From NCBI GenBank assembly GCA_051313645.2, contig JBNRSN020000001.1, positions 560,418,001 through 560,482,000 of the forward strand: a stretch of 64,000 nt of DNA. Reading direction: 5' to 3'. The notes under the pieces are model-generated. The model had not been told where the DNA came from, ran no database searches, and saw only the letters and a list, made by a program, of their open reading frames with translations. Of the stretch, positions 6,958 to 58,090 are shown one piece after another (positions within the stretch are counted from its first letter, which is position 1; each line of letters begins with the position of its first letter). Source of the DNA: Centroscyllium fabricii. Lineage: Eukaryota. The translations under genes and the position numbers were made by a program.

Positions 6958-6969
6958 TCGGGGTCACCA
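6958..6969 (-). promoter_or_regulatory. Primer-binding site complementary to tRNA-Trp 3' end
   Basis: TGGTGACCCCGA 1 nt after the 5' LTR; matches the 3' end TCGGGGTCACCA of vertebrate tRNA-Trp. Confidence 0.88.
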
Positions 6970-6970
6970 C

Positions 6971-7215
6971 TGTAGCGCCGGCAGGCCTAGGAACCACACG
7001 TGAGCCAGAGCTAGAGAAAAACACAGCTTTAATCACTAGTACAAAACAAGAAAGAGAGTGAACCACTCGAGACAGGCATATTTAAACGGTCCCGCGGTTG
7101 GTGACGTCATCGCGTCGGCCGACGTGATGACGTCGTCGCGTCACCCGGATGAGCGGGGCTTTGCTCCGCGGAGTCCCCATGGCGGATTCGATGTCCCCGT
7201 GGGCGTACCGCCACA
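6971..7215 (-). repeat. Element A 5' LTR
   Basis: Near-identical to 3138-3382; next to the PBS. Confidence 0.95.
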
Positions 7216-8189: not shown

Positions 8190-8490
8190 TGTGACCAAAA
8201 TAACGACCTCGTGGACGAGTAGTTAGAAGGGTGAAACAATACGGCTTTTATTCGCTAAATGGTGGACATGCACCAGCTAGTCGACCGTCCCCAGGAATGG
8301 CCGGGGGATGGGAGACGGCCGCTTATATACCTCCTCCTGGGAGGGAGGAGTCGCGGGTGGAGCCAGCATAGGCATGTCCATGTAATCGCACACAATAGGC
8401 TATGGTACAACATGGAGAACAGTGCGATTACAGTAATACAGATATATACATAACAGGGTGGATATATACAGGAAACAGTGGTTTACCACA
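8190..8490 (-). repeat. Element B 3' LTR
   Basis: About 7-8 differences from 12531-12832. Confidence 0.95.
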
Positions 8491-8554
8491 TTCACCCCTT
8501 CTTTAAAACAAAAGTCCGGCGGGGTGAACGCGACAGTTCTTTTTAATTTACAAA

Positions 8555-11500
8555 TTACAAATTAAGTCGCTCAGGCGGCCTGGTGATCCTGGTTGAGCGT
8601 CGCACCGCTGGTGGTGTCAGCGGCCGTGGAGTGGCCGGTCGGGTTGGTTGCACCGTTGGTGATGATGCCGGTTGGCGAGCGATGGTCGATAGTGTCGGTT
8701 GATTTCTCGTTGGTGCCCTTGCAGTGACAGTAGGTGGTGCGCTCTCTCCCTCGTCGTCTGACTCTAGGGGGCGTGTACTGTGGAGCCATGTTGGAGGCCA
8801 TGCCGTGCTGCCCACAGGTGCCGGGTGGACGTTCCGGGGTGCTGGGTTCTCGTGCCGGGGAGCATACCTTGGCGCCGGTGGCCCGGGTGGAGTGGCTGGC
8901 CGTCTTGGGTGCGCGGGCTGCTGGGCGGGGCTGGTTTTGGGGGTTCCCGCTGGCGCCAGGTCCTTGATGGACACGGTGTCCTCCCTCCCGTCGGGGTATG
9001 CCACGTAGGCGTACTGGGGATTGGCGTGCAGGAGGTGGACCCGTTCGACCAGGGGATCTGCCTTGTGGCCCCTCACGTGCTTCCGTAGTAGGACTGGTCC
9101 CGGGGATAGTAGCCACGATGGTAGCGAGGTCCTGGAAGCCGACTTCCTGGGGAAGGCAAAAAGTCGCTCGTGAGGGGTGGCATTAGTGGCCGTACACAGG
9201 AGGGACCGGATGGAGTGGAGCGCTTCAGGGAGGACGTCCTGCCAGCGGGCGACTGGGAGGCCTTTAGACCGTAGGGCTAACAGGATGGCCTTCCAGACAG
9301 TGGCGTTCTCCCTCTCTACCTGTCCGTTCCCTCGGGGTTATAGCTGGTAGTCCTGCTAGTGGCGATGCCTTTGGCTAGCAGGAACTGACGCAGCTCGTCA
9401 CTCATAAAAGAGGCCCCCCGGTCGCTATGGATCTAGCTGGGGTAGCCGAACAGAGAGAAGATGCTGTGGAGGGCTTTGATAACAGTGGCGGAGGTCATGT
9501 CCGGGCAGGGGATGGCAAAGGGGAAGCGGGAGTACTCGTCAATGATGTTGAGGAAGTACACGTTCCTGTTGGTGGAGGGAAGGGGCCCTTTGAAATCGAC
9601 GCTGAGTCGTTCAAAGGGGCGGTTGGCCTTGATCAGATGCGCCCGGTCTGGCCGATAGAAGTGCGGCTTGCACTCCGCACAGACCTGGCAGTTGCTGGTC
9701 ATGGTCTTGACCTCCTCGATGGAGTAGGGGAGGTTGCGGGACTTCACAAAGTGAACCAACCTGGTGACCCCCGGGTGGCAGAGGTCATTGTGTAGGGTTT
9801 GGAGGCGGTCTGTCTGTGCGCTGGCACATGTACCGCGTGATAGGGCGTCTGGGGGTTCGTTAAATTTCCCGGGCCGGTACAAGATATCGAAATTGAACGC
9901 GGAGAGCTCAATTCTCCACCTTAATATCTTGTCGTTCTTGATTTTACCCCGCTCTTTGTTGTTGAACATAAAAGCGACTGAGCGTTGGTCAGTCAGCAGG
10001 GTAAATCTTTTGCCGGCCAGGTAGTGCTTCCAGTGACGCACTGCTTCAACGATGGCCTGGGCCGCCTCCTTGACTGAGGAGTGACGGGTCTCGGGGCCCT
10101 GGAGGGTACGTGAGAAGAAGGCCACGGGTCTGCCCACCTGGTTAAGGGTGGCGGCCAGGGCAAAGTCCGATGCATCGCTCTCTACCTGGAATGGGACAGA
10201 CTCGTCCACGGCGTGCATCGTTGCCTTTGCAATGTCGTCCTTAATGCCGCAGAACGCCGCGCGGGCATCTGCGGACAGGGGAAATGAGGTGGATTTAAGC
10301 AGTGGGCGAGCTTTGTCCGCGTAATTGGGGACCCACTGGGCATAATAGGCAAAGAAACCCAAACACCGTTTAAGGGCCTTGGGGGAGTGGGGGAGGGGAA
10401 GCTCCAGGAGGGGGCGCATGCGGTCCGGGTCGGGACCGATGACCCCATTCTCCACAACACTGCCGAGGATGGCCAGGCGGGTGGTACTGAACACACATTT
10501 TTCAGTGTTATACGTCAGATTGAGTGTTTTGGCGGTGTGGAGAAATTTCTGGAGGTTGGCGTCATGGTCCTGCTGATCGTGGCTGCAGATGGTCACATTA
10601 TCGAGGTACGGGAAAGTGGCTCGCAGCCCGTACTGATCGACCATTCGGTCCATCTCCCTTTGGAAGACCGAGACCCCATTTGTGATGCCAAACGGGACCC
10701 TGAGGAAGTGGTAGAGGCGACCGTCAGCCTCGAAGGCAGTATAGAGACGGTCCTCTGGGCGAATGGGGAGCTGGTGATACGCGGACTTCAGATCTATGGT
10801 TGAGAAAACCCGGAACTGAGCGATCTGATTTACCATGTCCGCTATCTGTGGAAGGGGGTATGCGTCTAACTGGGTGAACCGGTTAATGGTCTGACTATAG
10901 TCCACTACCATCCGGTTCTTAGCTCCGGTCTTCACCACCACTACCTGCGCCCTCCAGGGGCTATTACTGGCCTCGATAACCCCCTCCTTCAGGAGGCGCT
11001 GCACCTCGGACTTGATAAAGTCCATGTCCCCAGCACTGTAGCGCCTACTCTTGGTGGCGACGGGCTTGCAGTCTGGGGTGAGGTTGGCAAAGAGCAAGGG
11101 AGGGGCGACCTTAAGGGTCGAGAGGCCACAGGTAGCGCGCCGAGGGTGCTGCACCGAGCGCCGGTTGCTGACCGTGAGCGGGGGAAGGGGCCCACCGTAC
11201 GCCATGGTAACGCTTTGGAGATGGCACTGGAAGTCCAGACCCAATAGCAATGGAGTGCAGAGCTGCGGCAGCAAGAAAAAGCTAAAGTCACTAAAGTGCA
11301 CGCCCCGCACCGTTAGAGCCACTGCGCAACGCCCGGAGACGTCCGCAGATTCTGATTTGGAAGCCATTGAGATCTTTTGGCTCGCTGGCATAACCTTAAG
11401 GGAGAGGCGCCTTACTGTTTCAGGATGAACAAAACTCACCGTGCTCCCGCTGTCGAAAAGGCACTCGACGTCCTGTCCGTTCACTCCCACTGGCATCATC

Positions 11501-12507
11501 GACTTCCCGAGTGATTGAGCCTTGTTCTGGTCCAGGGTCACCGATGCCAATATTGGATCAGACGATTCCTCTTGATCCGGCGAGAAGTCCTCCGGGGCCT
11601 GGTCCCAAGATGGCTGCCGCCATGTGGTGTACTGCGGAGGGGGTGGCTGGGTCCAATATGGCGTCTGCTGCCACGCGGTGTGCTGAGTGGGGGATGGCTG
11701 AGTCCAATATGGCTGCCCCCATGTTCCACACGCGGCACTGCCCGGTTTCGGTTTTGGGGCTGCAGTCGCCTTGCAGACTTTAGCGTAATGTCCCTTCTTC
11801 CCACATTTTGAACAGGCCGCGTCTCTTGCCGGGCAGCTGCATCTCGGATGCTGAGACTGCCCGCAGAAGTAGCATTTTGCTGTCTTAGCGTGGGCGGCTG
11901 CGATCATTTCTTCCGCCGGCCGTTGTGCCGGCGCTGTCCAAGTTGTCGGGGCTGGGCCCGTGTAGTTGCCGGAGTATGACGATAAGTTTAACGATGCCAC
12001 ATCCAGCGCGTTGCCCAGGTCCGCTGTTGCCTGCAGGTCAAGGCCGTTCTGTTCTAACAGCCGTTGTCTGATATAGTCCGACCTGAGGCCTGTAACATAT
12101 GCGTCTCTGATTAGACAGTTCACATGGACCTGGGCCGATTGCGCTCTGCAGTCACAGGCCCGTGATAGCACTCTCAGCGCTCGTAAAAATTCCACGCTGG
12201 ACTCACCGGGTTGCTGCTTTCTGGTAGCTAGAATGTGTCTGGCGTGGACGATATTGGGTGCCCGTTTGTACTCCGCCTTGAGGATCATGATAGCATTCAA
12301 GAATGATGATGCATCCACGATCATGGAGTACACCTGAGGGCCCACCTGGGCATTGAGGAGCCGCCGTTTGTCCTCTTCGGTCCTGACGACCGCTGCGTTC
12401 GCTCTCATGTACGCATTGAAACAGTCATACCAGTGCGAGAATGTGTTTGATGTGCCTGGTGTCCGGGGATCCAATTCGAACGTTGCTGGCTTGAGCATTG
12501 CGTCCAT
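8555..12507 (-). pseudogene. Element B gag-pol
   Basis: Two zinc knuckles, LFDSGS, YLDN, RNase H DAS..E..D..D, integrase; nonsense TAG at 9433-9435 and a 1-nt deletion near 9335 relative to element D. Confidence 0.9.
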
Positions 12508-12530
12508 CTTCAAAATTTAGCTAATAAAAT

Positions 12531-12832
12531 TGTGACTGAAATAACGACTTCGTGGACGAGTAGTTAGAAGGGTGAAACAATACGGCTTTTATTCGCTAAA
12601 TGGTGGACATGCACCAGCTAGTCGACCGTCCCCCAGGAATGGCCGGGGGCTGGGAGACGGCCGCTTATATACCTCCTCCTGGGAGGGAGGAGTCACGGGT
12701 GGAGCCAGCATAGGCATGTCCAGGTAATCGCACACAATAGGCTATGGTACAACATGGAGAACAGTGCGATTACAGTAATACAGATATATACATAACAGGG
12801 TGGATATATACAGGAAACAGTGGTTTACCACA
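12531..12832 (-). repeat. Element B 5' LTR
   Basis: TATATAA and AATAAA on the minus strand; TG..CA. Confidence 0.95.
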
Positions 12833-14051: not shown

Positions 14052-14338
14052 TGTGGTAACCATATGTATGTATAAATTACCACCGTAATATTGGTGCCAA
14101 TATTACCAGTGTACATAGCGGTCGGGTGCATAAGATGTTGCGACACTGTCGTGGGGCCAGGTCAGCCACACCTCTAACTCCTCCCCCAGGTGAGGCCCTT
14201 TATAGGTGAGGACTGACCGGACCCCAGCCATTCTGTACCTGTTGTTCGTTCGGAGTATAGCTCCTATAAGTCAATAAAAGCCTGTAGTTAAGGTCACTAC
14301 TCGTCTTTGACTTTATTGAGTTAATTGACGATACGTCA
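14052..14338 (+). mobile_element. Solo LTR, element-E-like Gypsy family
   Basis: TG..CA, perfect TSD GGGTG, AATAAAAGCC, end TTGACGATACGTCA. Confidence 0.92.
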
Positions 14339-14440: not shown

Positions 14441-15407
14441 GGGGTAAATTTTCCCTCGGGTGTGGGGAATTGGTGGGTTTCTGGCGAGTCAGGTTTCCCA
14501 CACGAATGCTAAAGGGCCTGGGAGTCCCATGCAATTTTGGCTCAATTGGCCAATGAATTCCCTGCATGTGGGAACCCTTGCCACTTGACTATTTTCATTC
14601 TGAAAGTCGGCGGGGTGCCGACTGCTTAAAGAACAGAGCCCCGTTACAAAGCAAAGTGCAGCACAGCCCTTTGACTGGCAGCTCCTGGTCAGTTACAATG
14701 GGTAGTAAACCACAGCCCTTTGACTGACAGCTCCTGGTCAGTTACAATGGGTAGTAAACTACAGCCCTTTGACTGACAGCTCTGGTCAGTTACAATGGGT
14801 TGTAAACTACAGCCCTTTGACTGACAGCTCCTGGTCAGTTACAATGGGTAGTAAACCACAGTCCTTTGACTGACAGCCCCTGGTCAGTTACAATGGGTAG
14901 TAATTCAGAGCCCTTTCATTGACAGCTTCTGCAGAGCTATCTGTCAAACATGGGACACAGTTGCAAGGTGAGTTTATTAGAAGCTTTAATCTCACTGAAA
15001 TTGTACACCCTGGGGATACAGTTAGCCCTCCTACAGGCTGCTACCCAGGGACGACTTCTGGTACAGCTGATTGCATGTCATCCTTTGACTTGCAGCTGAT
15101 ACTCAGCATGCAGATTGTGTCCCCGCCAGGTTTCACTGGCGGGGTTTCAAGCTGGCGGGTTATGGGTGGGGAACACCTGAAAATAGCAAGGGCACCTTAA
15201 AATGGCATTATACATGCCAATTAAGGGTCCTTAAGGAGCCTAACGACCATTCCCGCCGGTCGCGGGTGGGAAAGATTCGGGGCGGGCAGACACGGCGGCA
15301 GGAAATTGCAAAGCGGTGGGGATCCGGCGGGGGTCGGGACCCCCCCCGTTTTGCTATTTTGCGCCCCGCCAGAAAACCCGCCTCACGGCCCGAGGAAAAT
15401 TTACCCC
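14441..15407. mobile_element. Non-autonomous PIF/Harbinger-like DNA transposon
   Basis: TIRs GGGGTAAATTTTCC(C)TCGGG / CCCGAGGAAAATTTACCCC; 3-bp flanks AAA/AAA. Confidence 0.75.
14662..14930. repeat. ~49-bp minisatellite, ~5.5 copies
   Basis: Unit CACAGCCCTTTGACTGACAGCTCCTGGTCAGTTACAATGGGTAGTAAAC. Confidence 0.95.
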
Positions 15408-16704: not shown

Positions 16705-16790
16705 AAGAAATGGAGAAGGTAGCAATCTCCCAGCAATGGAGGAAAGAAACCCGAGGTCACAACACAGAAGGCGTGGCTGGATGTGGCACA
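16705..16790 (+). pseudogene. Harbinger Myb/SANT-like gene, 5' piece (interrupted by element C)
   Basis: RKKPEVTTQKAWLDVA, continuing after 31025 towards RKCFNDLTRSG. Confidence 0.5.
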
Positions 16791-17027
16791 AATCAATATG
16801 CCAGTATTTGGTGAAGTGTAAATGAAGGCTTTTATTAGCTAAGAACTAGACCTGGTCTGCGATGAGTCCGCCCGGAATGAGAGTCAGGTGGGCGGAGCAT
16901 CCTCCTTTATACTCATACCCGGAGGCGGGATCAGCTGGTCTAGGTCCTTACAGAAAGGAACAGATTTATTAGCACAAACTATATACAATAATAACACAGT
17001 GTGAACCACACTAAATGGTTCACCACA
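16782..17027 (-). repeat. Element C 3' LTR
   Basis: Matches the reassembled 26098-26289 + 30971-31025. Confidence 0.92.
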
Positions 17028-17134
17028 TTCACCCCTTCCTTAAAAAACAAGTCCCGCGGGGCGAATATCAGCACTGCGTTATCAGTCTTTGAGGAGGTCG
17101 AACAGTCTGAGAAGACCTGCGAAGCAGTGGCGAT

Positions 17135-20100
17135 TCACATCAATAGGCGGGAGTAGTCGCAATCGGAAAAGACGCCTGACGGGGCTCCTGACGTGAACAG
17201 GGACTCCACCGGTGGAAGAGGAGGCTCATGCGCAGGAAGATCTGGTGGAGGTGTAGCAGCCGCCGGAAGAGTAGGTTGAGCAGTGTGATGAACTCCGTCG
17301 TGCATTGTAGGTGACAAGGGCCCCAATGTAGTGTGCGCCGGTGAATGAAAAGAAGGCCCCTATTGTGGACATGCGACCTGGGAGGGCAAGGGCTCCGCCA
17401 ACAACTCTAAGTGAACGTCTCCAGCGGGCGCGAGGTCCCTAATCGAGATGGTATCCTCACGCCCGTCTGGGTACTCCACGTAAGTGTACTGAGGGTTGGC
17501 ATGCAGCAGGCGCACACGTTCAACAAGGGGGTCCATCTTGTGCCCACGGGCATGTCTCCGAAGCAGAACCGGCCCTGGGTTGGTAAGCCACGTAGGCAGA
17601 GACATCCCCGAAGTCGATTTCCTGTGGAAAGAGAAGAGTCTCTCGTGAGGAGTGCAACCGGTAGCTGTACACAAAAGGGAACGAGTAGCGTGGAGCGCAT
17701 CCTGGAGGACCTCCTGCCAGTGGGAGGTTGGAAGGCCTTTGGATCAAAGGGCCAGAGCAATGGCCTTCCAGATGGTCCCATTATAACGTTCTACCTGGCC
17801 ATTCCCCCGGGGGTTGTAACTGGTCGTTCTGCTCGAGGCAACCCCCCTCGCGAGCAGAAAATGACGCAGTTCGTCACTCATAAATGAGGACCCCCGGTCG
17901 CTGTGTACGAAGCCGGGGAGGCCAAAAATGGTGAATAGCGTGATAAAATGCTTTATCACTGTTGCACTCGTCATATCTGGGCATGGGAATGCAAAAGGGA
18001 AATGGGAGAACTCGTCGACCACAGTGAGGATGTACGAGTTACGATTGGTAGAGGGGAGGGGACCTTTGAAGTCCACACTCAGGCGCTCGAATGGGCGGGT
18101 GGCCTTGATGAGGTGCGCCCTGTCAGGCCTGTAAAACTGGGGCTTGCACTCAGCACAGACAGGGCACTCCTGCGTCATCGCCTTGATCTCCGCAATGGAA
18201 TAAGGGAGATTGCGTGATTTGACAAAGTGAGCGAGCCTGGTGACCCCCGGGTGACAGAGATTAGCGTGGAGGGTCTTCAGACTACCCGACTGGGCGCTGG
18301 CACACGATCCTCGGGAAAGGGTGTCCGGGGGATCATTAAGCTTCCCTGGCCGGTACAGAATATCGTACTCAAAAGCGGAGAGTTCGATCCGCCACCTGAG
18401 GATCTTGTCATTCTTGATCTTACCCTTCTGTTTATGGTGGAACATAAACGCTACTGACCGCTGGTCAGTAAGAAGGGTAAAACGCTTACCGGCCAAATAG
18501 TGGCGCCAGTGGCGCACTGCTTCCACGATTGCTTGGGCCTCCTTTTCCACTGAAGAGTGGCGGACTTCAGGGCCTTGCAGGGTACGGGAGAAAAAAGCAA
18601 CGGGCCTGCCTGCCTGGTTGAGGGTGGCGGCCAGGGCAAAGTCTGAGGCGTCGCATTCGACCTGGAAGGGGAGAGACTCATCAATGGCGTGCATGGTTGC
18701 CTTGATGATGTCCTGCTTAATACGTGAAAATGCAATTTGGGCCTCTAATGGGAGCGGGAAGGAGGTAGCTCTGAGGAGAGGCTGGGCCTTATCAGCATAA
18801 TGGGGAACCCATTGTGCATAATACGAGAAAAACCCCAGGCATCTCCTCAAAGATTTGGGGGAGTGCGGCAGAGGCAGCTCCTGAAGGGGGCGCATACGTT
18901 CGGGATCAGGGCCGAGGACCCCACTCTCAATTACGTAGCCGAGGATAGCCAACCGGTTAGTGTTGAAAACACACTTATCCTCATTGTAAGTGAGGTTCAG
19001 ACGCTGGGCCGTACGGAGAAACCTGTCCAAATTATCATCGTGATCTTGCTGGTCATGGCCGCAGATCGTGACATTGTCCAAATACGGGAAGGTGGCCTGC
19101 AAATGGTACTGGTCAACCATTCGGTCCATCTCCCGTTGGAAGACCGAAACTCAGTTAGTAACCCCAAAGGGGACCCGGAGGAAGTGAAAAAGGTGCCCAT
19201 TTGCCTCAAAGGCAGTGTATTTACGGTCCTCAGCTCTGATGGGGAGCTGGTAATAGGCCGACTTAAAGGTCGATGGTGGAGAAGACCTTATACTGAGCAA
19301 TCTGGTTAACCATATCATTTATCCTAGGAAGCGGATAAGCGTCGAGCCCAGTGTAGCGGTTAATGGTCTGACTATAGTCAATGACCATGCGCTGTTTGTT
19401 GCCCGACTTAACCACTACCACCTGGGCCCGCTACGGGCTGTTACTGGCCTCGATGATGCCCTCCCGCAACACCCGGGCAACCTCTTCCTTAATAAAGGTG
19501 CGGTCCCCCACGCTGTATCGCCTACTCTTAGTTGCAATGGGCTTGCAGTCAGGGTCAAGGTTGGTGAACAGCGAGGGGGGGTCTATCTTCAAGGTAGACA
19601 GACCGCAAGAGGAGTGTGTTTGTGAGGCAGGGCAGTCGCGGCTGCTGACCGTGAGAGGAGGCAGGGGACCACCGTACGCCATCGTCAAGCTCTGCAGATG
19701 GCACTGGAAATCCAGGCCAAGCAACACAGGGGCACAGAGCTGTGGGAGGACGTACAGTGGAAAGTTGCGGTATGTTGTCCCCTTCACAGTAATGGTGACT
19801 GTACAGCAGCCGATGACATCCACAGTCTGGGAATCGGAGGCGAGGGAGATTTTATGATGCGCGGGCCTAACCCTGAGGGAATAACGGCACACCCTATCAG
19901 GGTGTATAAAGCTCTCCGTACTCCCAGTGTCGAACAGACAGCGGATGAGGTGCCCCTCCACCCGGATGGTCATTGTTGATAAAGTAAGAGACGAGTTTGG
20001 GGCCGTAGAGGCAAGTGTGGTGTGCGCGCTGGGGCCCTTGTGCAATGCAGCGTCCGCGGTTGGTGGCGGCGCCTGTGATTCGCACGCGGCGGGCTGCGGT

Positions 20101-21083
20101 GGTGTTTTGGACCGGTGGGTGAGTCTCCAAGAACCCGAATGCTGAAGTGGTCTTGAGTAGTCTGTTGCAGCTGCCAGGACTGCCGAGGTTGATTTTAAGT
20201 TGCTAGTTGCTGCAGCAGCCTGTTCATTTAAATTGTTCTTTTTCCTACACCAAGATGGCGTCGTCGCGTGATGGGCCGGGCCCGCTGCAGGCGGAGTGCG
20301 GCCCGTCCTATACAAAGATGGCGTCGTCACGTGACGGGGCGGGGCCTCTGTTGCCGGGATGCAGGCCGTCCTGCACCAAGATGGCGGCGTCACGTGATGG
20401 GGCGGGGCCTCGCGCCGCTCCAGCAAAGAAGAAGGCCGCGCCTCCGTGACGCGGGAAGATGGCGGCTTCATGTGATGGGGCGGGGCCTCTGCTGCCCAGA
20501 GGCCCGACGGCGCCCTAGTTTCACGCCGTTCCAGCGGTGAAGAAGAAGACCACGCCCCCAAAGATGGCAATCCGGCGCGGGACCCGACAGAGGGAAGAGA
20601 CGCCCCCGCCCCCAACGATGGCGCAGAAACGATGCTGGCAGGCCGCTCCCGAGGCAATGTAGGTAAAAAAAAATTTGGGGGGCCGCTGTTGGGGGACGCC
20701 AGGTACCTGAGGCCACTCTGTGGTGTGGGCAGCGCAGGCTGCTGCCGTTTTGCCTGTAGATTCCGGGGCCGATTGGCAGACCTTCGCAAAGTGGCCCTTC
20801 TTGCCACATTTGGAGCAGGATGATGACTTTGCTGGGCAGGATCTTCGTGGATGACGTTTCTGGCCGCAAAAAAAGCATTTTGGAGGCGCTGGCCGTCCAG
20901 ATGGTGCCGCGGCCGCCACGGTCGCCGTCGAACGCGAGTCCCAAGGCCCTGTGGGAGCCGTGCCCCGTGTATGAATCCAGGCTTCGGAGGGCCCCATCCA
21001 CCGCGTTGGAGAGCTTCACCGCCTGGTTCAGGGACAAATTATCCTGCTCGAGCAGGCGGGTGCGCGCTGGGGCCGATCGGATT
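17135..21083 (-). pseudogene. Element C gag-pol, distal part (several frameshifts)
   Basis: CFFCGQKRHPRRSC, CSKCGKKGHFAKVC, LFDTGS, YLDN, SVDFKGP/HSDRG/VERY spread over several ORFs; 3' end approximate. Confidence 0.88.
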
Positions 21084-21088
21084 CCTGC

Positions 21089-21307
21089 TGTGGTAATACA
21101 GAACAGCTTCTATCTGCTTACATCACTTCCGGGGACCTATGAACGTTTGTATGATGTCACTTCCTGTAACTAGCCCAGTATAAATACTGGGCTACTCACT
21201 ATGATTTAGTAAGAGGCATAGTGAAGACCTCTTTTGTATGTAGCACCTTTATAAGTTGATTAAAGCTTACCTTAAGTTCCTATCATGTAAGTTTCATTCT
21301 TACAACA
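21089..21307 (+). repeat. Element F 5' LTR
   Basis: TG..CA, TATAAATA at 21179, ATTAAA at 21259. Confidence 0.95.
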
Positions 21308-21319
21308 ATTTAATCAACT

Positions 21320-24300
21320 TTGCAAAACCTCTCACTCAACTCGAACTTTTGGACAAAACTCGGAGCTGAGGATCCAGGGAAGCCACCAGCATGGAGAACC
21401 TCCTTAGACCGACTCGTCTCGATTTGGACCCAAACACCCCAGCAGCTGATAAAGTCTGGAAACACTCACGCTTTTGAAAATTTTCTTGTATATTGTGAAG
21501 CTGATGATGACATGAAGCTCAAGTTACTAATCAACTATGTCACCCCAAGGGTATATGAATGTGTGGATCATTGGACTAATTTTGATGAGGCAATTCGGAC
21601 ACTTCAGAGACTATATACTAAGACACCTAATGAGGTCTATGCTAGACATCTACTAGCTACAGCCCGACAAGGGCCAGAGGTATCAATTGATAAATTCCTT
21701 CATGAGCTTCGCAGGCTTAGCATGAATTGTAACTTTCAGGCGGCTTCAGCTGAGCTGTACCGTGAAGAGATGATTCGTGATGCCTTCATCTGCGGGCTTG
21801 CCTCCCCATTTATTCGCCAGCGTCTACTCGAAAGTAAGACACTGGAACTACAAAAAGCTTATGACTTGGCTTGTTCTCTGGATTTGGCAAAAAGAAATGC
21901 AGACCTTTATGAAGTACCTAGACCTCGAACTGCTGCTTTAACCACAACCAGACAATTTAAGCGGCCACAGGTGAACTCTATTAGGGAGGACTTTTATCCT
22001 GATGATCAATCTGAGGACTTCACTGATGAAGAAGATAATGACCCCACTCTGGCAGCCTCTTGGCGATCTAAGAAATGCTTCTTTTGTGGTGATGAGTTTC
22101 ATCCTAGGAAATTCTGCCCTGCTCGCAATGCGATTTGCAGTCATTGTGACAAAAAGGGTCATTTTGCGAAGGTTTGCCTATCACGAGCCTCTACGAGGGC
22201 TTATCAAGCTCAGTCCTATCGAACTGCCCCAATTAGGGCCTATCAAGATATTCCGGCTAAATCTTATCATGCTTCCTCTCGGGGTTTTTCCCGAAGAAGC
22301 ACACCTAGAGTTTCTGCCACTCTTTGTGCAACAACATCAATTACAGCTGCTTGTCCTCCAAATCTATTCTATGCTGCTGTGAAGGCATCAATTGCTGGAC
22401 ATACTTTAGATGCCTTAATTGACTCTGGCAGCTCTGATAGTTTTATTAGGGAACAGGTTGTTACAAAGTTAAAGCTACATGTTTTCCCATCCAACCAGGC
22501 AATTGCGATGGCTCAGTCGTCGCTCAACACCAGAACCTCCGGCTTTTGTATTGTTGAAATATCACTTAATGGCCACAGGTATCCCTCTACCCGGCTTTCG
22601 GTGCTCAAGGACCTGTGTAGTGACCTTCTCTTAGGGCTGGACTTCCAAAAGCAGCATAAGACGCTCACTATTGAGTTCGGCGGATCCAAACCCGGACTCA
22701 CTGTTTCTAATATCCTGCCTCAATTACCGTTCTGTGCGTTGTCAGCGGCTTCGCTGGATGAACCCTCACTATTTACCAGTATTCCTCCTCGATGCAAGCC
22801 AATTATAACAAAATCACGACGTTTCACTCAGGAAGACCAGTCCTTTATTGCGACTGAAATTTCTCGGCTTTTGGCAGAGGATATCATCGAGCCTTGTTCA
22901 TCGCCATGGCGGGCCCAAGTTGTTATTGTTAAAAATCCTCTGCAGCCTCACAAGAAATGGCTGTGCATTGACTATTCACAGACCATCAATCAATATACGG
23001 ACTTGGACGCCTACCCATTGCCGCGCATAGATGATATGGTTAATAAATTGGCTGAGTACACGGTGTTCTCAACGTATGATCTGAAAAGCGCCTATCATCA
23101 AGTACCTTTGAAAGTCTCAGACAAGCAGTATACGGCCTTTGAGGCCAATGGACGGCTGTACCAGTTCCGTCGCCTCCCGTTTGGGGTCACTAATGGAGTG
23201 GCTGTCTTCCAGCGGGCAATGGATGACTTCGTCAAGCAGGAAAACTTAAAGGATACTTTTCCTTATCTAGATAATATTACTGTTGCAGGTCATGATCAAC
23301 AGGAACACGACGCCAATCTCCAACGATTTCAGGATGCCCTCCAGCACCGTAATTTAACATTGAATGCATCTAAATCTATTGAGTCGCAACCAACCATAAA
23401 CATCCTTGGCTATTGTGTGGGCAATGGCATAATTAAACCGGACCCTGAAAGGCTTCGTCCGCTCCAAGAGCTCCCGCCACCTAAGAATCCAGCCTCCTTG
23501 CGTCGGGCCCTCGGCCTCTTTGCGTATTATGCTAAGTGGATTCCTAACTTCTCGGACAGAATCCAACCCCTACTGAAGGCCGGAACATTTCCATTAGACA
23601 CAGCGGCTGTTACAGCCTTTAATCTTCTAAAACAACTGTTGGAGAAAGCGGCCCTTCACTCTGTTGATGAGAATCTGCCCTTCGTCGTTGAATGTGATGC
23701 CTCAGAAGTGGCGATCTCGGCTACTCTGAATCAAGAAGGTCGTCCGGTGGCATTTTTATCCAGGACCTTTCAAGGTGCCGAAATACATTATCCTCCAGTG
23801 GAGAAAGAAGCTACAGCCATTATCGAGGCAGTACGGAAATGGAACCATTTCCTAGCTCGGCAACACTTTACGTTAATAACAGACCAGCGATCGGTCGCTT
23901 TTATGCTTGATAATCGGAAACGAACCAAAATTAAAAATAATAAGATCCAGCTTTGGCGGATGGAATTGGCCTCTTTCGGTTACACCATCCACTACCGACC
24001 TGGCAAGGACAATGTGGCCCCGGATACCCTCACACGAGCATTCTGCTCCGCCGTGTCACCCTCTACTCTCGTGGAAGTCCATGATGGATTGTGTCATCCT
24101 GGCGTTACCCGCATGTTACACTTCGTGCGATCACGGAATCTCCCTTTTTCTACCGGGGATGTCAAGAAGATGTGCTCGGACTGCAGAGTCTGTGCAGAAT
24201 TAAAGCCTCAGTTTTTCCGCCCCTCGGGTGGTACGCTCATACATGCGACCCAGCCGATGCAACGGCTTAGCATTGATTTTAAGGGCCCGTTGCCCTCTTC

Positions 24301-25369
24301 AACTCGAAACACTTATTTACTGACCATGGTCGACGAATATTCCCGTTTTACGTTTGCCTTTCCCTGCCCCAATATGCTGTCATCCACCGTTATCAGCTGC
24401 CTTGAACAGGTATTTTCTTTCTGTGGCATGCCGTCTTACGTTCACTCGGATCGGGGTCCTTCCTTCATATCAGGAGAACTCAAGGCTTATCTCTCGGATC
24501 GGGGCGTTGCTACCAGTAAAACGACGCCTTATCATCCTGTCGGGAATGGGCAAATCGAACGGTATAATGGCATCATTTGGAATTCTGTATGTCTAGCTTT
24601 GAAATCTCGGGGCTTGCCCATCCAGCAATGGGAAGCAGTACTCCCAGACGCATTGCATTCTACACGGTCCCTTCTTTCGACCGCCACGAATATGACTCCC
24701 CATGAACGATTCTTTCAATTCCAGCGTCGCTCATCCTCCGGGATCTCTCTTCCATCGTGGCTGACTACACCAGGACTGGTGTTACTCCGGAGACATGTCC
24801 GGGCATCCAAGAATGACCCCCTTGTAGACGAGGTGGAACTGACTGATATCAACCCGACCTATGCATATATCCAATATCCTGACGGTCGGGAATCCACTGT
24901 GTCGTTACGGGATCTAGCTCCCTGCCCGCCGAAACTTACTGGGACACCTGGGGATGGTGATTTGCCAGGCGCATCTCTGTGCTCGCCAGGTACCCCTCAC
25001 CAGGATCTGGATCTGACGCCGGCTGGCACTTCACTCCAGGATACAAACCGGAGGCAGACCGACTATGAGCCCGTTGGGGCTCGCACACGCAGCCACGATC
25101 CACCACGTTCTACACGCCCAGAAACGAATCTACCACAGACCTACTCAACACCCGTTCGGGCTCAAACGCAAAGCCATGCTCTCCCAGATCCTTCACAGGG
25201 CGGGCCAGACCACACGGATTCTGATCAATGGCCCACGGCACGTAAACGGGCTAGAGACCCTCTATCACCATGTGAACCCAAACGGGTACGACTCTCCCTC
25301 ATTCGACGGATACGTAATGAAGGGAGGATTCCGGCCTCCAACTCTTTTGGGAGGGAGGCGGCCTCCTAA
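21320..25369 (+). CDS. Element F gag-pol polyprotein (1349-codon open frame; likely true ATG 21391 is frameshifted near 21465)
   Basis: Zinc knuckles, LIDSGS, YLDN, RNase H, HHCC + DDE; MENLLRPTRLDLDPNTP..WKH from 21391 is homologous to the N-termini of B-E but out of frame. Confidence 0.88.
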   Translation: MQNLSLNSNFWTKLGAEDPGKPPAWRTSLDRLVSIWTQTPQQLIKSGNTHAFENFLVYCEADDDMKLKLLINYVTPRVYECVDHWTNFDEAIRTLQRLYTKTPNEVYARHLLATARQGPEVSIDKFLHELRRLSMNCNFQAASAELYREEMIRDAFICGLASPFIRQRLLESKTLELQKAYDLACSLDLAKRNADLYEVPRPRTAALTTTRQFKRPQVNSIREDFYPDDQSEDFTDEEDNDPTLAASWRSKKCFFCGDEFHPRKFCPARNAICSHCDKKGHFAKVCLSRASTRAYQAQSYRTAPIRAYQDIPAKSYHASSRGFSRRSTPRVSATLCATTSITAACPPNLFYAAVKASIAGHTLDALIDSGSSDSFIREQVVTKLKLHVFPSNQAIAMAQSSLNTRTSGFCIVEISLNGHRYPSTRLSVLKDLCSDLLLGLDFQKQHKTLTIEFGGSKPGLTVSNILPQLPFCALSAASLDEPSLFTSIPPRCKPIITKSRRFTQEDQSFIATEISRLLAEDIIEPCSSPWRAQVVIVKNPLQPHKKWLCIDYSQTINQYTDLDAYPLPRIDDMVNKLAEYTVFSTYDLKSAYHQVPLKVSDKQYTAFEANGRLYQFRRLPFGVTNGVAVFQRAMDDFVKQENLKDTFPYLDNITVAGHDQQEHDANLQRFQDALQHRNLTLNASKSIESQPTINILGYCVGNGIIKPDPERLRPLQELPPPKNPASLRRALGLFAYYAKWIPNFSDRIQPLLKAGTFPLDTAAVTAFNLLKQLLEKAALHSVDENLPFVVECDASEVAISATLNQEGRPVAFLSRTFQGAEIHYPPVEKEATAIIEAVRKWNHFLARQHFTLITDQRSVAFMLDNRKRTKIKNNKIQLWRMELASFGYTIHYRPGKDNVAPDTLTRAFCSAVSPSTLVEVHDGLCHPGVTRMLHFVRSRNLPFSTGDVKKMCSDCRVCAELKPQFFRPSGGTLIHATQPMQRLSIDFKGPLPSSTRNTYLLTMVDEYSRFTFAFPCPNMLSSTVISCLEQVFSFCGMPSYVHSDRGPSFISGELKAYLSDRGVATSKTTPYHPVGNGQIERYNGIIWNSVCLALKSRGLPIQQWEAVLPDALHSTRSLLSTATNMTPHERFFQFQRRSSSGISLPSWLTTPGLVLLRRHVRASKNDPLVDEVELTDINPTYAYIQYPDGRESTVSLRDLAPCPPKLTGTPGDGDLPGASLCSPGTPHQDLDLTPAGTSLQDTNRRQTDYEPVGARTRSHDPPRSTRPETNLPQTYSTPVRAQTQSHALPDPSQGGPDHTDSDQWPTARKRARDPLSPCEPKRVRLSLIRRIRNEGRIPASNSFGREAAS

Positions 25370-25387
25370 TCTTTTGGGAGGGAAGAA

Positions 25388-25606
25388 TGTGGTAATACAG
25401 AACAGCTTCTATCTGCTTACATCACTTCCGGGGACCTATGAACTTTTGTATGATGTCACTTCCTGTAACTAGCCCAGTATAAATACTGGGCTACTCACTA
25501 TGATTTAGTAAGAGGCATAGTGAAGACCTCTTTTGTATGTAGCACCTTTATAAGTTGATTAAAGCTTACCTTAAGTTCCTATCGTGTAAGTTTCATTCTT
25601 ACAACA
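25388..25606 (+). repeat. Element F 3' LTR
   Basis: Near-identical to 21089-21307. Confidence 0.95.
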
Positions 25607-26073
25607 CCTGCTACGTAGGCATCGCGGATGAGAAGGTCCATGTGCTCCTGGGCGTCAACAGGTGCACATTCGCAGCGCAGAGCGAGAGCCTGAAGAGCCT
25701 CCAGGTACTCCTCATTCGACTCACCAGGCTGTTGCCTCCGCGTGGCGAGTAGATGCCGAGCGTAGACGGCGTTGACTGGCTGGAGGTATCGAGCCCTCAG
25801 CAGCTCCAATGCTGCATCGTAGTCAGTGGCATTCTTGATGATCGAATATACCCTGCCACTGACGCAGGAGATGAGGACCCATCTCCTGTGCGCATCGCTG
25901 ACTCTGGCCACCACCAGAAACGATTCGAAGCAGCTCAGCCAGTGCTCAAAATCGTTCGAAGCGTTCGGTGTCTGGGGGTTGAGGTCGAGAGTCTTCGGTT
26001 TAAGGATCGATGTCCAGTTATCTGATGCAGCTGGCTGGTGGCTCTGTTCTTGCTCATCCCCGTGCTGGCTCAT
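25607..26073 (-). pseudogene. Element C gag N-terminal part
   Basis: MSQHG..LKPKTLDLNP..YARHLLATRRQQPGES..DAYVAG; continues at 21083 (IRSAPARTRLLEQ). Confidence 0.9.
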
Positions 26074-26289
26074 TGTAAAAATCTTAGCTAATAAAATTGA
26101 TGCGCAAATCAATTACGCCAGTCTTTGGTGAAGTGTAAACGAAGGCTTTTATTAACTAAGAACTAGACCTGGTCCACGATGAGTCCGCCCGGAATGAGAG
26201 TCAGGTGGGCGGAGCATCCTCCTTTATACTCATACCCGGAGGCGGGGTCAGCTGGTCCAGGTCCTTACAGAAAGGAACAGATTTATTAG

Positions 26290-26564
26290 TGTGACCTACA
26301 ATAACGTCCTCGGAGGCGAGTAGTTAGTTAGAAACAATCAGGCTTTTATTCACTACACTGGAACATGCACCAGGTAGTCGACTGTCCCCAGGAATGGCTC
26401 GGGGGATGGGAGCAGTCACTTATATACCTCCTCCTGGGAGGGAGGAGTTATGGGCGGAGCCAACCTGGGCATGTCCCAGTCATCACGACATCATACAGGT
26501 ATTTACAGGGTTACATCTCAATACATAACAATAACTATATTACAGTGATAACCAGTTTATCACA
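26290..26564 (-). repeat. Element D 3' LTR
   Basis: Near-identical to 30691-30965. Confidence 0.95.
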
Positions 26565-26676
26565 TTCACCCCTTCTTTAAAACGAAAGTCCGGCGGGGTG
26601 AATGGCCAGTAAATGGAAAAGGGAAGGAATTTTTATTTTATTTTATTTTATAACGAGAAAAGTTTTTCTTCTTTAG

Positions 26677-29600
26677 CTATAGATTAAGTCTTGCTGGCGG
26701 TTTTGATGTCCGCGTCGATCTTCGCACCGCTGGAGGTGTCGGTGGTCGAGGCGTGGCTGGCCGTGTCGGTTGCTGTAGCGGTGTCGGTGCCAGTTGATGA
26801 GCAGTAATGCTACTTCTGGGTGGTGGTGGTGCCCTTATTCTGACAGCAGGGGGCGCATTCTCTCCTTCGTCCTCTGACTCTAGGGGGCGCGCGCTGTGGA
26901 TCCAAGCTTGGGGCCAGGTCGTGCTGCTCGCAGGTGCCATGCGGACGTACTGGGGTACTGGGCCCACGTGTTGGGGAGCGTACTTTGGCTTCGGCGGCAT
27001 GGGGAGCGTCACAGGAAGTTTTGGGTGCGCGGGCTGCTGGGCGGGGCTTCTTGGAGGCGCGGGCTGCTGGGCGGGGCTGGGTTTGGGGACTCCTGCTGGG
27101 GCTAGATCCTTTATGGGCACGGTGTCCTCCCTCCCATCGGGGTACGCTATGTACGCGTACTGGGGATTGGCGTGCAGGAGGTGGACCCGTTCGACTAGGG
27201 GATCTGCCTTGTGTCCCCTCACATGCTTCCGAAGCAGGACCGGTCCCGGGGATAGTAGCCACGATGGTAGCGAGGTCCCGGAAGCTGACTTCCTGGGGAA
27301 GGCAAAAAGTCTTTCGTGAGGGGTGGCATTAGTGGCAGTACACAGGAGGGACCGGATAGAGTGGAGCGCTTCAGGGAGGACGTCCTGCCATCGGGTGACT
27401 GGGAGGCCTTTAGACCGTAGGGCTAGCTGGATGGCCTTCCAGACAGTGGCGTTCTCCCTCTCTACCTGCCCGTTCCCCCGGGGGTTGTAGCTGGTAGTCC
27501 TGCTAGTCGCGATGCCTTTCGCTAGCAGAAACTGACGCAGCTCGTCACTCATAAAAGAGGCCCCCCGGTCACTATGGATATAGTTGGGGTACCCGAACAG
27601 GGAAAAGATGCTATTAAGGGCTTTGATGACGGTGGCGGAGGTCATGTCCTGGCAGGGAATGGCGAAGGGGAAGCGGGAGTACTCATCTATTACGTTAAGG
27701 AAGTACACATTCCTATTAGATGAGGGAAGGGGCCCTTTAAAATCGACGCTGAGTCGTTCAAAGGGGCGAGTGGCCTTGATCAAGTGCGCCCGGTCTGGCC
27801 GGTAGAAGTGCGGCTTGCACTCCGCGCAGACCTGGCAGTTGCTGGTCAGGGTCTTGACCTCCTCGATGGAGTAGGGGAGGTTGCGGGACTTCACAAAGTG
27901 AACCAACCTGGTGACCCCCGGGTGGCAGAGGTCATTGTGAAGGGTTTGGAGACGGTCAGCCTGTGCGCTGGCACAGGTACCGCGGGATAGGGCATCTGGG
28001 GGTTCGTTAAATATCCCGGGCCGGTACAAAATATCATAATTGAACGCAGAGAGTTCAATTCTCCACCTTAATATCTTGTCGTTCTTTATTTTACCCCGTT
28101 CCTTGTTGTTAAACATGAATGCGACTGATCGTTGGTCAGTCAGTAGGGTAAAACGTTTGCCGGCCAGGTAGTGCTTCCAATGCCGCACTGCTTTAACAAT
28201 GGCCTGGGCCTCCTTCTCGACTGAGGAGTGACGGGTTTCGGGGCCTTGGAGGGTACGTGAAAAGAAGGCCACGGGTCTGCCCGCCTGGTTAAGGGTGGCG
28301 GCCAGGGCAAAGTCAGATGCATCACTTTCCACTTGGAATGGGACGGACTCATCAACAGCGTGCATCGTGGCTTTGGCAATATCGTTTTTGATTCTGCAGA
28401 ATGCCGAGTTGGCTTCTGCAGAAAGGGGAAAAGAGGTAGATTTAAGTAGTGGGCGAGCTTTGTCCGCATAGTTAGGGACCCACTGGGCATAGTAGACGAA
28501 AAATCCCAAACACCGTTTAAGGGCTTTGGGGGAGTGGGGGAGGGGAAGCTCCATGAGGGGGCGCATGCGGTCCGGGTCTGGACCGATGACTCCATTCTCC
28601 ACCACGCTGCCGAGGATGGCCAGACGGCCGGTGCTAAATACACATTTCTCTTTATTGTACGTTAGGTTCAGAGTTTTGGCCGTGTGGAGGAATTTTTGGA
28701 GGTTGGCATCATGGTCCTGCTGATCATGGCCGCAGATGGTCACATTATCGAGGTACGGGAAAGTGGCTCGCAGCCCGTACCGATCAACCATTCGGTCCAT
28801 CTCCCTTTGGAAGACCGAGACCCCATTCGTGACGCCAAACGGAACCCTAAGGAAGTGGTAGAGGCGACTGTCAGCCTCGAAGGCTGTATAAAGACGGTCC
28901 TCTGGGCGGATGGGAAGCTGGTGATAAGCCGATTTGAGATCAATCGTGGAGTACACTTTAAATTGGACGATTTGGTTCACCATGTCCGCTATCCGGGGGA
29001 GGGGGTAGGCATCTAATTGGGTGAAGCGGTTTATGGTCTAACTATAGTCCACCACCATCCTGTTCTTCTCCCCGGTTTTTACTACTACTACCTGCGCTCT
29101 CCAGGGGCTATTACTGGCCTCTATGACCCCCTCTTTTAGGAGGCGCTGTACCTCTGATTTTATAAATGCCATGTCCCCAGCACTGTAGCGCCTACTTTTG
29201 GTGGCGACGGGCTTGCAGTCTGGGGTGAGATTGGCGAAGAGGGATGGAGGGGCAACCTTAAGGGTCGAGAGGCCACAGGTAGTGTGCTGGGGGTACCGCC
29301 TTGGGCTGCGGTTTCTGACCGTGAGTGAGGGAAGGGGTCCGCCGAATGCCATCGTCACGCTCTGGAGGTGGCACTGGAAATCCAGTCCCAGGAGTAGGGG
29401 GGTGCAGAGCTGCGGCAGCACGTAAAAGCTAAAATCGTTAAACCTTGCCCCCTGTACATTAAGTGTTACAACGCAGCGCCCGGTGACGTCAGCAGATTCC
29501 GACTTAGACGCCATAGATATTCTCTGGCGCGCAGGGATTACTCTAAGGGAGAGGCGCTTTACAGTATTTTGATTTATGAAACTTACTGTGCTCCCGCTGT

Positions 29601-30669
29601 CGAACAGGCACACCACCTCTTTACCGTTGACTTCCACCGGCATCATAGATTTCTCCAGCGGTTGAGTCTTCCTCTGGTCTATGGTCATCGATGCTAACAC
29701 AGGGTCCTCCAAGTCGTCTTGATCCGGAGAGTAGTCCTCCGAGGCCGCTCCCCAAGATGGCTGCCGCCATGTGGTGTACTGTGGAGGGGGAGGCTGAGTC
29801 CAAGATGGCCACTGTTGCTGCTGCTGCTGCCACAAGGGCTGCTGAGTGGGGGATGGGTGAGCCCAATATGGCTGTTCCCATGTTCCAGACGCGGCGCTGC
29901 CCAGTTTTGATTTTATGCTAGTGCTTTTACAGACCTTCGCATAATGTCCTTTCTTGTCACATTTCGAGCAGATCGCTTCTCTAGCAGGGCCGCTGCGTCT
30001 TGAGTGCTGAGACTGCCCACAAAAGTAGCATTTGGCTGCCGTTTTCGCGTGGGCGGCTGTGATTAGTTCTTCTGCCGGTCGTTGAGCCGGCACTGTCCAA
30101 GATTGCGGGGCTGGGCCTGTATAGCTGCTGGAGTATGAAGATAAGTCCGTTGAGGCCCTATCCAGCGCGTGCCCCAAGTCTGTAGTCACCTGTAAGTCCA
30201 GGCCGTTCTGCTCCAGCAGTCTCTGCCTGACATAGTCTGATTTTAAGCCTGTTACGTAAGCGTCTCTGATGAGGCTATCTACATGGAGCGGGGCCGTTAG
30301 CGCCCTGCAGTCACAGTCCCGCGACAGTATTCTGAGGGCTCTTAGGAACTCCACACTTGACTCACCGGTTTGTTGCTTTCTGGTGGCGAGTATATGTCTT
30401 GCGTGGACTACATTCGGTGCCCGATTGTACTCCGTCTCGAGAATCCTGATGGCCTCCTGGAACGATGAGGCGTCCACTATCATGGAGTACACCTGAGGGC
30501 CCACCCGGGCGTTGAGGAGTCGCCGTTTGTGCTCTTCGGTCACTATGACCGCTGCATTGGCTCTGAGGTACCCTTCGAGCACACTGCGCCAATGTGTGAA
30601 GGCGTTCGATGCTCCTGGTGATCGGGGATCCAATTCGAAAACTGCTGGCTTGAGCATAGTAGTATCCAT
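26677..30669 (-). pseudogene. Element D gag-pol with a single in-frame stop
   Basis: ORFs 29038-30669 and 26677-28983 share a frame; DYS*TIN (Gln codon to TAG at 29038-29040); all domains present, YLDN. Confidence 0.92.
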
Positions 30670-30690
30670 TTTTACAGTAGTGAATAAAAT

Positions 30691-30965
30691 TGTGACCTAC
30701 AATAACGTCCTCGGAGGCGAGTAGTTAGTTAGAAACAATCAGGCTTTTATTCACTACACTGGAACATGCACCAGGTAGTCGACTGTCCCCAGGAATGGCT
30801 CGGGGGATGGGAGCAGTCACTTATATACCTCCTCCTGGGAGGGAGGAGTTATGGGCGGAGCCAACCTGGGCATGTCCCAGTCATCACAACATCATACAGG
30901 TATTTACAGGGTTACATCTCAATCCATAACAATAACTATATTACAGTGATAACCAGTTTATCACA
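30691..30965 (-). repeat. Element D 5' LTR
   Basis: TG..CA; TATATAA and AATAAA on the minus strand. Confidence 0.95.
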
Positions 30966-31025
30966 ATTAGCACAAACTATATACAATAATAACACAGTGT
31001 GAACCACACTAAATGGTTCACCACA

Positions 31026-58065: not shown

Positions 58066-58090
58066 ATTTTAATCACTTTAAATTTTCGAA

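What the first reader, a model, noticed from the sequence alone, without database searches (positions are those of the whole stretch)
21253..21320. Most divergent member (F) independently keeps the PBS / poly(A)-signal duplex
F's LTR is not recognisably alignable to those of B-E and its protein is clearly more diverged, yet AAGTTGATTAAA pairs 12/12 with TTTAATCAACTT placed 1 nt after the LTR. This argues for selection on the structure rather than recent shared sequence. Its LTRs differ at only 2 of 219 sites, so it moved recently.
Basis: seen in the sequence. Interest (0 to 1): 0.7.

Follow-up and report, generated by a model that had tools for sequence, protein, structure and literature searches.

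The report
Retrotransposon primer overlapping its poly(A) signal
In one lineage of animal jumping genes, the place where a host tRNA normally binds to start copying instead matches the element's own poly(A) signal, which suggests the RNA primes its own copying and hides its first stop signal with the same helix.

Summary
In Gypsy element F (21089-25606), 21253-21264 pairs 12/12 with 21309-21320, which starts one base after the LTR's terminal CA. None of 2,000 shuffles reached this.

It is a lineage trait, not a quirk of F. All 5 family members in the window with a 5' junction have it, as do all 5 outside relatives that have one. Across these ten, 117 of 120 fixed positions are Watson-Crick pairs, with compensatory changes even inside the hexamer (AATAAA/ATTAAA/AGTAAA). 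None has a TGG tRNA-type site.

The best reading is tRNA-free self-priming, as in Tf1/sushi, but in a separate lineage without a chromodomain. Here the primer arm ends at the poly(A) signal and lies inside R rather than at the RNA's 5' end. The same helix would mask the 5' poly(A) signal only.

Part of the co-variation may instead be mechanical, because the primer is copied into the PBS. Priming, cleavage and RNA ends are inferred, not shown. F has an early gag frameshift. I found no description in the papers searched, but key older papers were unavailable.

The parts
21089..21307 (+). F 5' LTR (TG...CA, 219 nt)
21084..21088 (+). 5-bp target-site duplication CCTGC (second copy 25607-25611); F is inserted in the gag of element D
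21179..21185 (+). TATA-like box, 29 nt before the Inr-like A
   Evidence: function inferred
21206..21210 (+). Inr-like motif; predicted transcription start about 21208, 45 nt upstream of the paired arm
   Evidence: inferred, no transcript data
21253..21264 (+). LTR arm of the duplex (proposed self-primer 3' end); its last six bases (21259-21264) are the poly(A) hexamer ATTAAA
21265..21292 (+). tentative second short helix (P2) starting at the G right after the arm
   Evidence: modest, post hoc support
21308..21308 (+). one-base spacer (A) between the LTR's CA and the PBS, same in 10 of 10 elements
21309..21320 (+). PBS-position arm TTTAATCAACTT, complementary to the LTR arm, no TGG
21391..25369 (+). 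single gag-pol reading unit (Gag with two CCHC knuckles, PR 22379-22645, RT 22985-23413 with YLDN at 23264, RNase H 23669-23977, IN 24068-24538); frameshifted early in gag
25376..25387 (+). polypurine tract ending GAA before TG
25388..25606 (+). F 3' LTR; its copy of the arm and hexamer (25552-25563) has no downstream partner
12515..12529 (-). PBS arm of element B (8190-12832): 14 of 15 pairs, one mismatch against both LTRs
26082..26096 (-). PBS arm of element D (16782-31025, host of F and E): 15/15 with its 3' LTR, one G-U with its 5' LTR
30677..30689 (-). PBS arm of element E (26290-30965): 13/13
58067..58080 (+). PBS arm of element G (57784-62640): 14/14
6958..6969 (-). control: element A (3138-7215), another Gypsy lineage with a TGG tRNA-type PBS at the same one-base offset and no significant LTR duplex
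   Evidence: (131 of 2,000 shuffles reach its 7 bp)

Best explanation
F belongs to an animal Ty3/Gypsy lineage that starts minus-strand synthesis without a tRNA. SHOWN: a 10-15-bp co-varying duplex joins the segment ending in the poly(A) hexamer to the PBS position. INFERRED: (1) Transcription starts about 35-50 nt upstream of the hexamer. (2) In full-length RNA the 5' R copy folds onto the PBS. (3) A nuclease, by analogy with Tf1 the element's RNase H, cuts at or next to the A/G junction after the hexamer, leaving a capped primer of about 40-60 nt with 12-15 paired 3' bases. (4) RT copies the 24-57 nt back to the cut and jumps using the R stretch between hexamer and poly(A) site. (5) Plus-strand synthesis copies the primer into the new PBS, which resets complementarity. 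(6) The PBS arm exists only behind the 5' LTR, so the same helix hides the 5' poly(A) signal and leaves the 3' one exposed.
For: Fixed register CA-A-arm in 10 of 10 elements, the same offset at which tRNA-primed neighbour A has its TGG. No TGG within the first 14 leader bases in 10 of 10. PBS arms differ between elements yet track their own LTR: 117 of 120 fixed positions are Watson-Crick; the six variable positions give 57 of 60 against a permutation mean of 30.8, reached 1 time in 100,000. The second hexamer base varies only among AATAAA, ATTAAA and AGTAAA and is compensated each time; that these are working poly(A) signals is recalled knowledge. Only 1 G-U in 120, whereas the neighbouring P2 helix has G-U in 13 of 16 LTR copies, as expected if the main duplex is maintained by copying. 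Predicted hexamer accessibility falls to 0.01-0.06 with the leader in 7 of 10 elements, against 0.16-1.0 without it. The duplex meets the published self-primer criterion of at least 10 bp starting 0-5 bp after the 5' LTR (PMC6317226). Precedent for cleavage and for primer copying in Tf1: PMC7175516, PMC11042837.
Against: No RNA ends, cDNA intermediates or biochemistry were available. Start sites rest on short motifs in a window chosen after inspection, without a shuffle control. In L003 the cis duplex is not the predicted fold (mean pair probability 0.02), and it is partial in B (0.62) and L004 (0.41). In L002 the hexamer is already mostly paired without the leader (0.16), so masking is not leader-specific there. 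B carries a mismatch against both its LTRs. The ten elements are not independent (B/E and L003/L004 are close kin). The Tf1-type three-duplex 'pretzel' is not evident. The data cannot tell the 5' from the 3' R copy as the real partner.
Confidence: 0.66

Rival explanations
1. Self-encoded primer acting in trans or from the 3' end. The primer is a short capped R transcript (from 5' or solo LTRs, polyadenylated early and trimmed back to the duplex), a co-packaged RNA, or the 3' R copy of the genome. This would leave the 5' R intact for strand transfer.
For: The arm is present in every LTR copy, including solo LTRs 1572-1849 and 14052-14338. In D and L004 the PBS matches the 3' LTR better than the 5' LTR. 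The cis fold is weak in L003. The arm ends exactly at a 3'-end processing signal.
Against: The cis helix is the dominant predicted fold in 7 of 10 elements. The D and L004 differences are as easily drift after insertion. It needs precise trimming of a poly(A) tail plus 10-25 nt, for which I know no precedent.
Confidence: 0.14
2. The helix only suppresses the 5' poly(A) site (occlusion, like the HIV-1 R hairpin), and priming uses something else (a tRNA fragment or another host RNA).
For: The arm always covers the hexamer, and masking is predicted in 7 of 10 elements. LTR elements must silence the 5' poly(A) site (PMC3694450, abstract start and passages).
Against: Occlusion does not need a fixed one-base offset from the LTR end, nor Watson-Crick-only pairing. 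The PBS position is fully occupied and varies too freely to match one host RNA. There is no TGG site. I had no host tRNA set, so tRNA-fragment priming was not tested directly.
Confidence: 0.1
3. Ordinary Tf1-type self-priming: transcription starts at the arm, so the arm is the RNA's first 11-15 nt, and the hexamer-like bases are incidental or act only at the 3' LTR.
For: Arm length (12-15 nt) resembles the 11-nt Tf1 primer. Start sites are not mapped.
Against: An Inr-like motif lies 33-51 nt upstream of the hexamer in 11 of 12 LTRs, with a TATA-like box 26-33 nt before it in 8 of those 11. A TATA-like motif within 20 nt of the hexamer occurs in only 2 of 12, too close to place a start at the arm.
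Confidence: 0.08
4. Chance or recent shared sequence.
For: Both arms are AT-rich.
Against: 0 of 2,000 shuffles; 0.06% window background; present in 10 of 10 testable elements, including non-alignable LTRs.
Confidence: 0.01

Closest known systems
Tf1/sushi self-priming chromoviruses (Tf1, Tf2, Tj1, Tosmo, sushi-ichi, Tcn1)
   Same: Ty3/Gypsy elements with no tRNA PBS, whose PBS pairs with a segment of their own 5' LTR.
   Different: There the primer is the RNA's first ~11 nt inside a three-duplex 'pretzel', and integrase has a chromodomain. Here the arm ends in the poly(A) hexamer, is predicted to be internal in R, no chromodomain is found, and the RT-RNase H tree separates the lineage from Tf2-SH3-bearing elements.
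TAR lineage of plant Ty1/Copia (Houba, Osr-1)
   Same: Self-priming predicted from LTR-PBS complementarity, outside the Tf1/sushi group (PMC6317226).
   Different: Copia domain order and plant hosts. The passages read say nothing of an overlap with the poly(A) signal.
Retroviral 5' poly(A)-site suppression (HIV-1 R hairpin, U1 snRNP at the splice donor in HIV-1 and foamy virus)
   Same: Solves the same problem of two identical poly(A) signals (PMC3694450).
   Different: There priming is by tRNA and suppression uses a hairpin within R or U1 snRNP. Here the masking strand lies outside the LTR and is the PBS itself.
Cigr-1 clade (Ciona intestinalis; also molluscs and annelids) and the unnamed MolGy clades
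   Same: Candidate home clade: marine-invertebrate Gypsy elements. Homologs here are single ORFs of about 1,200 aa in tunicate, mollusc, crustacean, nematode and shark records. That Cigr-1 has one ORF of about this size is recalled, not checked.
   Different: No reference sequence could be obtained, so membership is untested. The passages read do not mention a PBS.

Membership tests
Ty3/Gypsy LTR retrotransposon | PR-RT-RNase H-IN order after Gag | tested here: met
   Pfam
Ty3/Gypsy LTR retrotransposon | TG...CA LTRs, target-site duplication, polypurine tract | tested here: met
Self-priming LTR elements (functional kind) | at least 10 bp complementary to the 5' LTR starting 0-5 bp after it (criterion of PMC6317226), and no TGG tRNA site | tested here: met
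   10 of 10 elements have 10-15 bp at offset 1 (B with one internal mismatch, D with one G-U)
Self-priming LTR elements (functional kind) | RNase H cleavage releases the primer and RT extends it | not testable with these tools
   needs biochemistry
Tf1/sushi chromoviruses | chromodomain at the integrase C-terminus | tested here: not met
   no Chromo or SH3_Tf2-1 match in 36 of 36 close members (three of them partial sequences) or 20 of 20 distant members; the SH3_Tf2-1 model does hit outgroup proteins
Tf1/sushi chromoviruses | primer is the 5'-terminal ~11 nt of the RNA | tested here: inconclusive
   promoter motifs put the start 33-51 nt upstream of the hexamer, but there are no transcript data
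Tf1/sushi chromoviruses | three-duplex 'pretzel' with both PBS flanks paired | tested here: inconclusive
   folds show the central helix plus a variable P2 and no consistent pretzel
Tf1/sushi chromoviruses | RT phylogeny within the chromoviruses | tested here: inconclusive
   the lineage is one side of a 100% SH-aLRT branch, apart from unnamed Tf2-SH3-bearing proteins (quick tree, midpoint root, no named Tf1 or sushi sequence available)
TAR (Ty1/Copia) | integrase before RT | tested here: not met
CsRN1 clade | tRNA-Trp PBS and 4-bp TSD (PMC2582038) | tested here: not met
   F has neither; neighbour A has both
Cigr-1 clade | RT/RNase H grouping with Cigr-1 | not testable with these tools
   original paper not held; FASTA supplements unreadable; table supplements gave names and accessions only
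Mag lineage | RT grouping with Mag/SURL/Jule | not testable with these tools
   no named references; F's double CCHC knuckle is Mag-like by recall only

The most novel reading that the evidence does not exclude
A further, independently evolved form of tRNA-free priming defines an old animal Gypsy lineage. The poly(A) signal itself is the primer's 3' end, so one helix both silences the 5' poly(A) site and starts reverse transcription, possibly with the primer made by the host's 3'-end processing. The lineage's RT mostly has YxDN instead of YxDD and may be adapted to this.
Probability: 0.5. Interest if true: 0.8.

Novelty: new variant of a known kind. Interest (0 to 1): 0.66.

Why it matters
In the papers read, self-priming is confined to Tf1/sushi chromoviruses (with Tcn1) and plant TAR elements. 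This would add a further origin, in animals, with a different geometry. It would also give a simple answer to how an LTR element tells its two identical poly(A) signals apart. Such elements would be immune to tRNA-fragment silencing at the PBS (inference). They would be missed or marked 'no PBS' by tRNA-based annotation. A simple rule (CA-A followed by the reverse complement of the hexamer region) would find them and their non-autonomous derivatives.

Tried and rejected
Searches that found nothing useful:
- Rfam and ARAGORN on the window gave 0 hits, so no local tRNA set was available.
- Plasmid tblastn gave one distant hit at 32% identity.
- The PDB sequence search gave only Ty3, caulimoviral and retroviral enzymes.
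- The ESM Atlas gave generic retrotransposon Gag clusters.

Loci left out of the count. Of 8 loci, three could not be scored: L005 lacks the 5' part, L007 is an internal fragment, and L008 lies outside the clade.

Corrected errors. In one search element D was anchored at the wrong base; one search corrects it, and only one search is used for counts. The careful tree did not finish, so the quick tree is reported.

Clade naming. Attempts through Cigr, MolGy and Saci-2 papers failed.

biv-TRIM link. The idea that bivalve TRIMs (no PBS found, PMC6934838) are derivatives of this lineage could not be checked, because the supplement text held no sequences.

Coverage.

Chance and a tRNA-type PBS were considered and rejected.

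Full report
SETTING. The window is eukaryotic and repeat-rich. Its CR1/L2-type repeats look like those of cartilaginous fish (recalled), and the closest named relative of B, D, E and G is a Scyliorhinus protein. Self-comparison and Pfam resolve six LTR elements: A 3138-7215 (-), B 8190-12832 (-), D 16782-31025 (-), E 26290-30965 (-, inside D's 5' LTR), F 21089-25606 (+, inside D's gag) and G 57784-62640 (+). There are also solo LTRs at 1572-1849 and 14052-14338. F has Gypsy order PR-RT-RH-IN, and the other elements show the same order across their ORF pieces.

OBSERVATION. 21253-21264 and 21309-21320 are perfect complements, and the second starts one base after the LTR's CA. None of 2,000 LTR shuffles matched this, and the window background is 78 of 127,500 positions. 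The helix is in the predicted fold (z = -3.95); the 3' LTR control has z = -0.06. The LTRs differ at 2 of 219 sites and the TSD is CCTGC. F is 55-60% identical to the other four, which share 79-95%, and its LTR does not align with theirs apart from a weak score against G. F's gag is frameshifted near 21465-21480, so this copy is damaged or mis-assembled.

A LINEAGE TRAIT. B, D, E and G have the same arrangement: 14 of 15, 15, 13 and 14 bp. A has a TGG site at the same one-base offset and only a chance 7-bp match (131 of 2,000 shuffles). Its PBS and 4-bp TSD fit the CsRN1 description in PMC2582038. A scan of prokaryotic genome contigs returned 8 loci, evidently contaminating eukaryotic DNA. Five contain an LTR-leader junction and all five have the duplex: L001 14 bp, L002 15, L003 14, L004 10, L006 14. 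L005 and L007 lack the junction, and L008 lies outside the clade. A protein search found 1,251 relatives at E <= 1e-50 among 8,000 scored candidates; the named ones come from Palaemon, Caligus, Trichuris, Clavelina, Mytilus and Scyliorhinus.

COVARIATION. I anchored the ten elements on the hexamer. Of 120 positions, 117 are Watson-Crick pairs, 1 is G-U and 2 are mismatches. The six variable positions give 57 of 60, against 30.8 +/- 5.1 when arms are permuted among elements (reached once in 100,000). Kinship (B/E, L003/L004) makes that test optimistic. The arm always ends in AATAAA (6 elements), ATTAAA (3) or AGTAAA (1), plus zero or one A, and is followed by G. The variable hexamer base is compensated every time. 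The junction reads CA-A-arm in 10 of 10, and there is no TGG in the first 14 leader bases. A short second helix starting at that G has modest post hoc support (combined p = 8e-4 over 8 elements; individual p 0.015-0.40 among those 8, and 0.999 for B's 5' LTR). It contains G-U pairs in 13 of 16 LTR copies.

MECHANISM. The base after the LTR is where minus-strand synthesis must start (established LTR biology). A sequence there that varies freely yet always complements the element's own LTR is the signature of self-priming, and it meets the criterion used in PMC6317226. In Tf1 the first 11 RNA bases pair with the PBS and RNase H cuts after base 11 (PMC7175516). The primers are copied into the cDNA ends (PMC11042837). 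Such copying would also explain why this duplex is almost free of G-U pairs while its neighbour is not. Part of the 'selection on structure' may therefore be templated resetting (inference).

GEOMETRY. It differs from Tf1. An Inr-like motif lies 33-51 nt before the hexamer in 11 of 12 LTRs, with a TATA-like box 26-33 nt before it in 8 of the 11 (short motifs, no shuffle control). The arm would thus be internal in R, and the primer about 40-60 nt long. Priming alone does not require the arm to cover the hexamer, so I infer a second role. With the leader, the hexamer's predicted unpaired probability is 0.01-0.06 in 7 of 10 elements, against 0.16-1.0 without it, and the leader exists only behind the 5' LTR.

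EVIDENCE AGAINST. L003 does not fold this way in cis, and B and L004 do so only partly. L002's hexamer is paired even without the leader. B has a mismatch against both LTRs. Nothing here maps RNA ends or shows cleavage. Priming by the 3' R copy or by short trans-acting R transcripts cannot be excluded.

COMPARISON. It works like Tf1/sushi but is not a member on the features I could test. No chromodomain or Tf2-type SH3 was found in 36 close and 20 distant members. In a quick RT-RNase H tree of 46 rows, the lineage is one side of a 100% branch, apart from unnamed Tf2-SH3-bearing proteins. Thirteen of its 21 rows are proteins without DNA, whose duplex is unknown. D and L006 were left out of that tree because their RT region is broken. 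Within the lineage, F groups with crustacean and tunicate proteins and L006, not with its neighbours in the window. Membership of the Cigr-1 or a MolGy clade could not be tested.

LITERATURE. Ten full-text searches listed no paper whose title, abstract start or read passages describe an LTR element whose PBS pairs with its poly(A) signal. What I saw of each paper:
- Keyword passages only: PMC3601003, PMC6317226, PMC3670739, PMC2774666, bioRxiv 10.1101/2022.12.06.519325, PMC4600332, PMC11042837, PMC2582038, PMC7175516, PMC3694450, PMC2864245.
- Passages plus supplement keyword searches: PMC6238403, PMC8556966, PMC13524379.
- Passages, section 5 and a supplement search: PMC6934838.
- Not seen: the original Cigr-1 paper (not held), Butler 2001 and the Levin papers (reference lists only), Repbase/GyDB/Dfam entries, and the FASTA, image and scanned supplements of the mollusc and annelid papers. 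Any of these could name the clade or already note the complementarity.

VERDICT. The feature is real, lineage-wide and strongly co-varying. It is most likely a new variant of self-primed reverse transcription that doubles as a 5' poly(A)-site mask. The mechanism is inferred. Interest 0.66.

Noticed in passing
window 23264 (F); also B 10614, D 19090, E 28761, G 60305: The RT active-site motif is YLDN rather than YxDD in all five family members. Among 120 homologs, 98 have xxDN, 18 xxDD and 4 did not match. A search for 'YLDN' with 'reverse transcriptase' found 0 papers. An Asp-to-Asn change here blocks Ty1 transposition (recalled), so a natural clade with it is odd.
   Followed up: partly
window 21089-25606: F's Pol is closer to crustacean-associated and unnamed proteins (up to 88-89% to P0001, 75% to P0002) than to co-resident elements (55-60%). 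This could reflect an old paralogous lineage or horizontal transfer.
   Followed up: partly
window 16782-31025: Triple nest: F in D's gag and E in D's 5' LTR. D's two LTRs diverge at the U5 end and show no clean TSD, so D may be a recombinant.
   Followed up: partly
window 25331-25387: F has a tandem duplication of its polypurine-tract region and a long low-complexity integrase tail (148 aa against a median of 79 in 66 homologs).
   Followed up: no
window 21166-21199: A 16-bp, 88% inverted repeat is centred on F's TATA box.
   Followed up: no
window 12515-12529 (-): B's PBS pairs 13 bp contiguously with D's LTR arm but has one mismatch against both of its own LTRs. This could be decay after insertion or an intermediate of two-step compensation.
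   Followed up: partly
window 3138-7215 (-): Element A is CsRN1-like (tRNA-Trp-type PBS, 4-bp TSD, DUF7041 Gag) and appears to lack part of RNase H.
   Followed up: partly
L001-L008: Species-representative prokaryotic MAGs contain eukaryotic retrotransposon contigs. L001 and L002 are single-LTR circular or collapsed assemblies.
   Followed up: no
window 14594-14976 and 58949-59344: 49-nt and 45-nt tandem arrays; the second lies inside G's gag and keeps the frame open.
   Followed up: no
PMC6934838 (bivalve TRIMs): These TRIMs have no identifiable PBS and a GGGGAGA polypurine tract like L002's. They are possible non-autonomous partners of this lineage, untested.
   Followed up: partly
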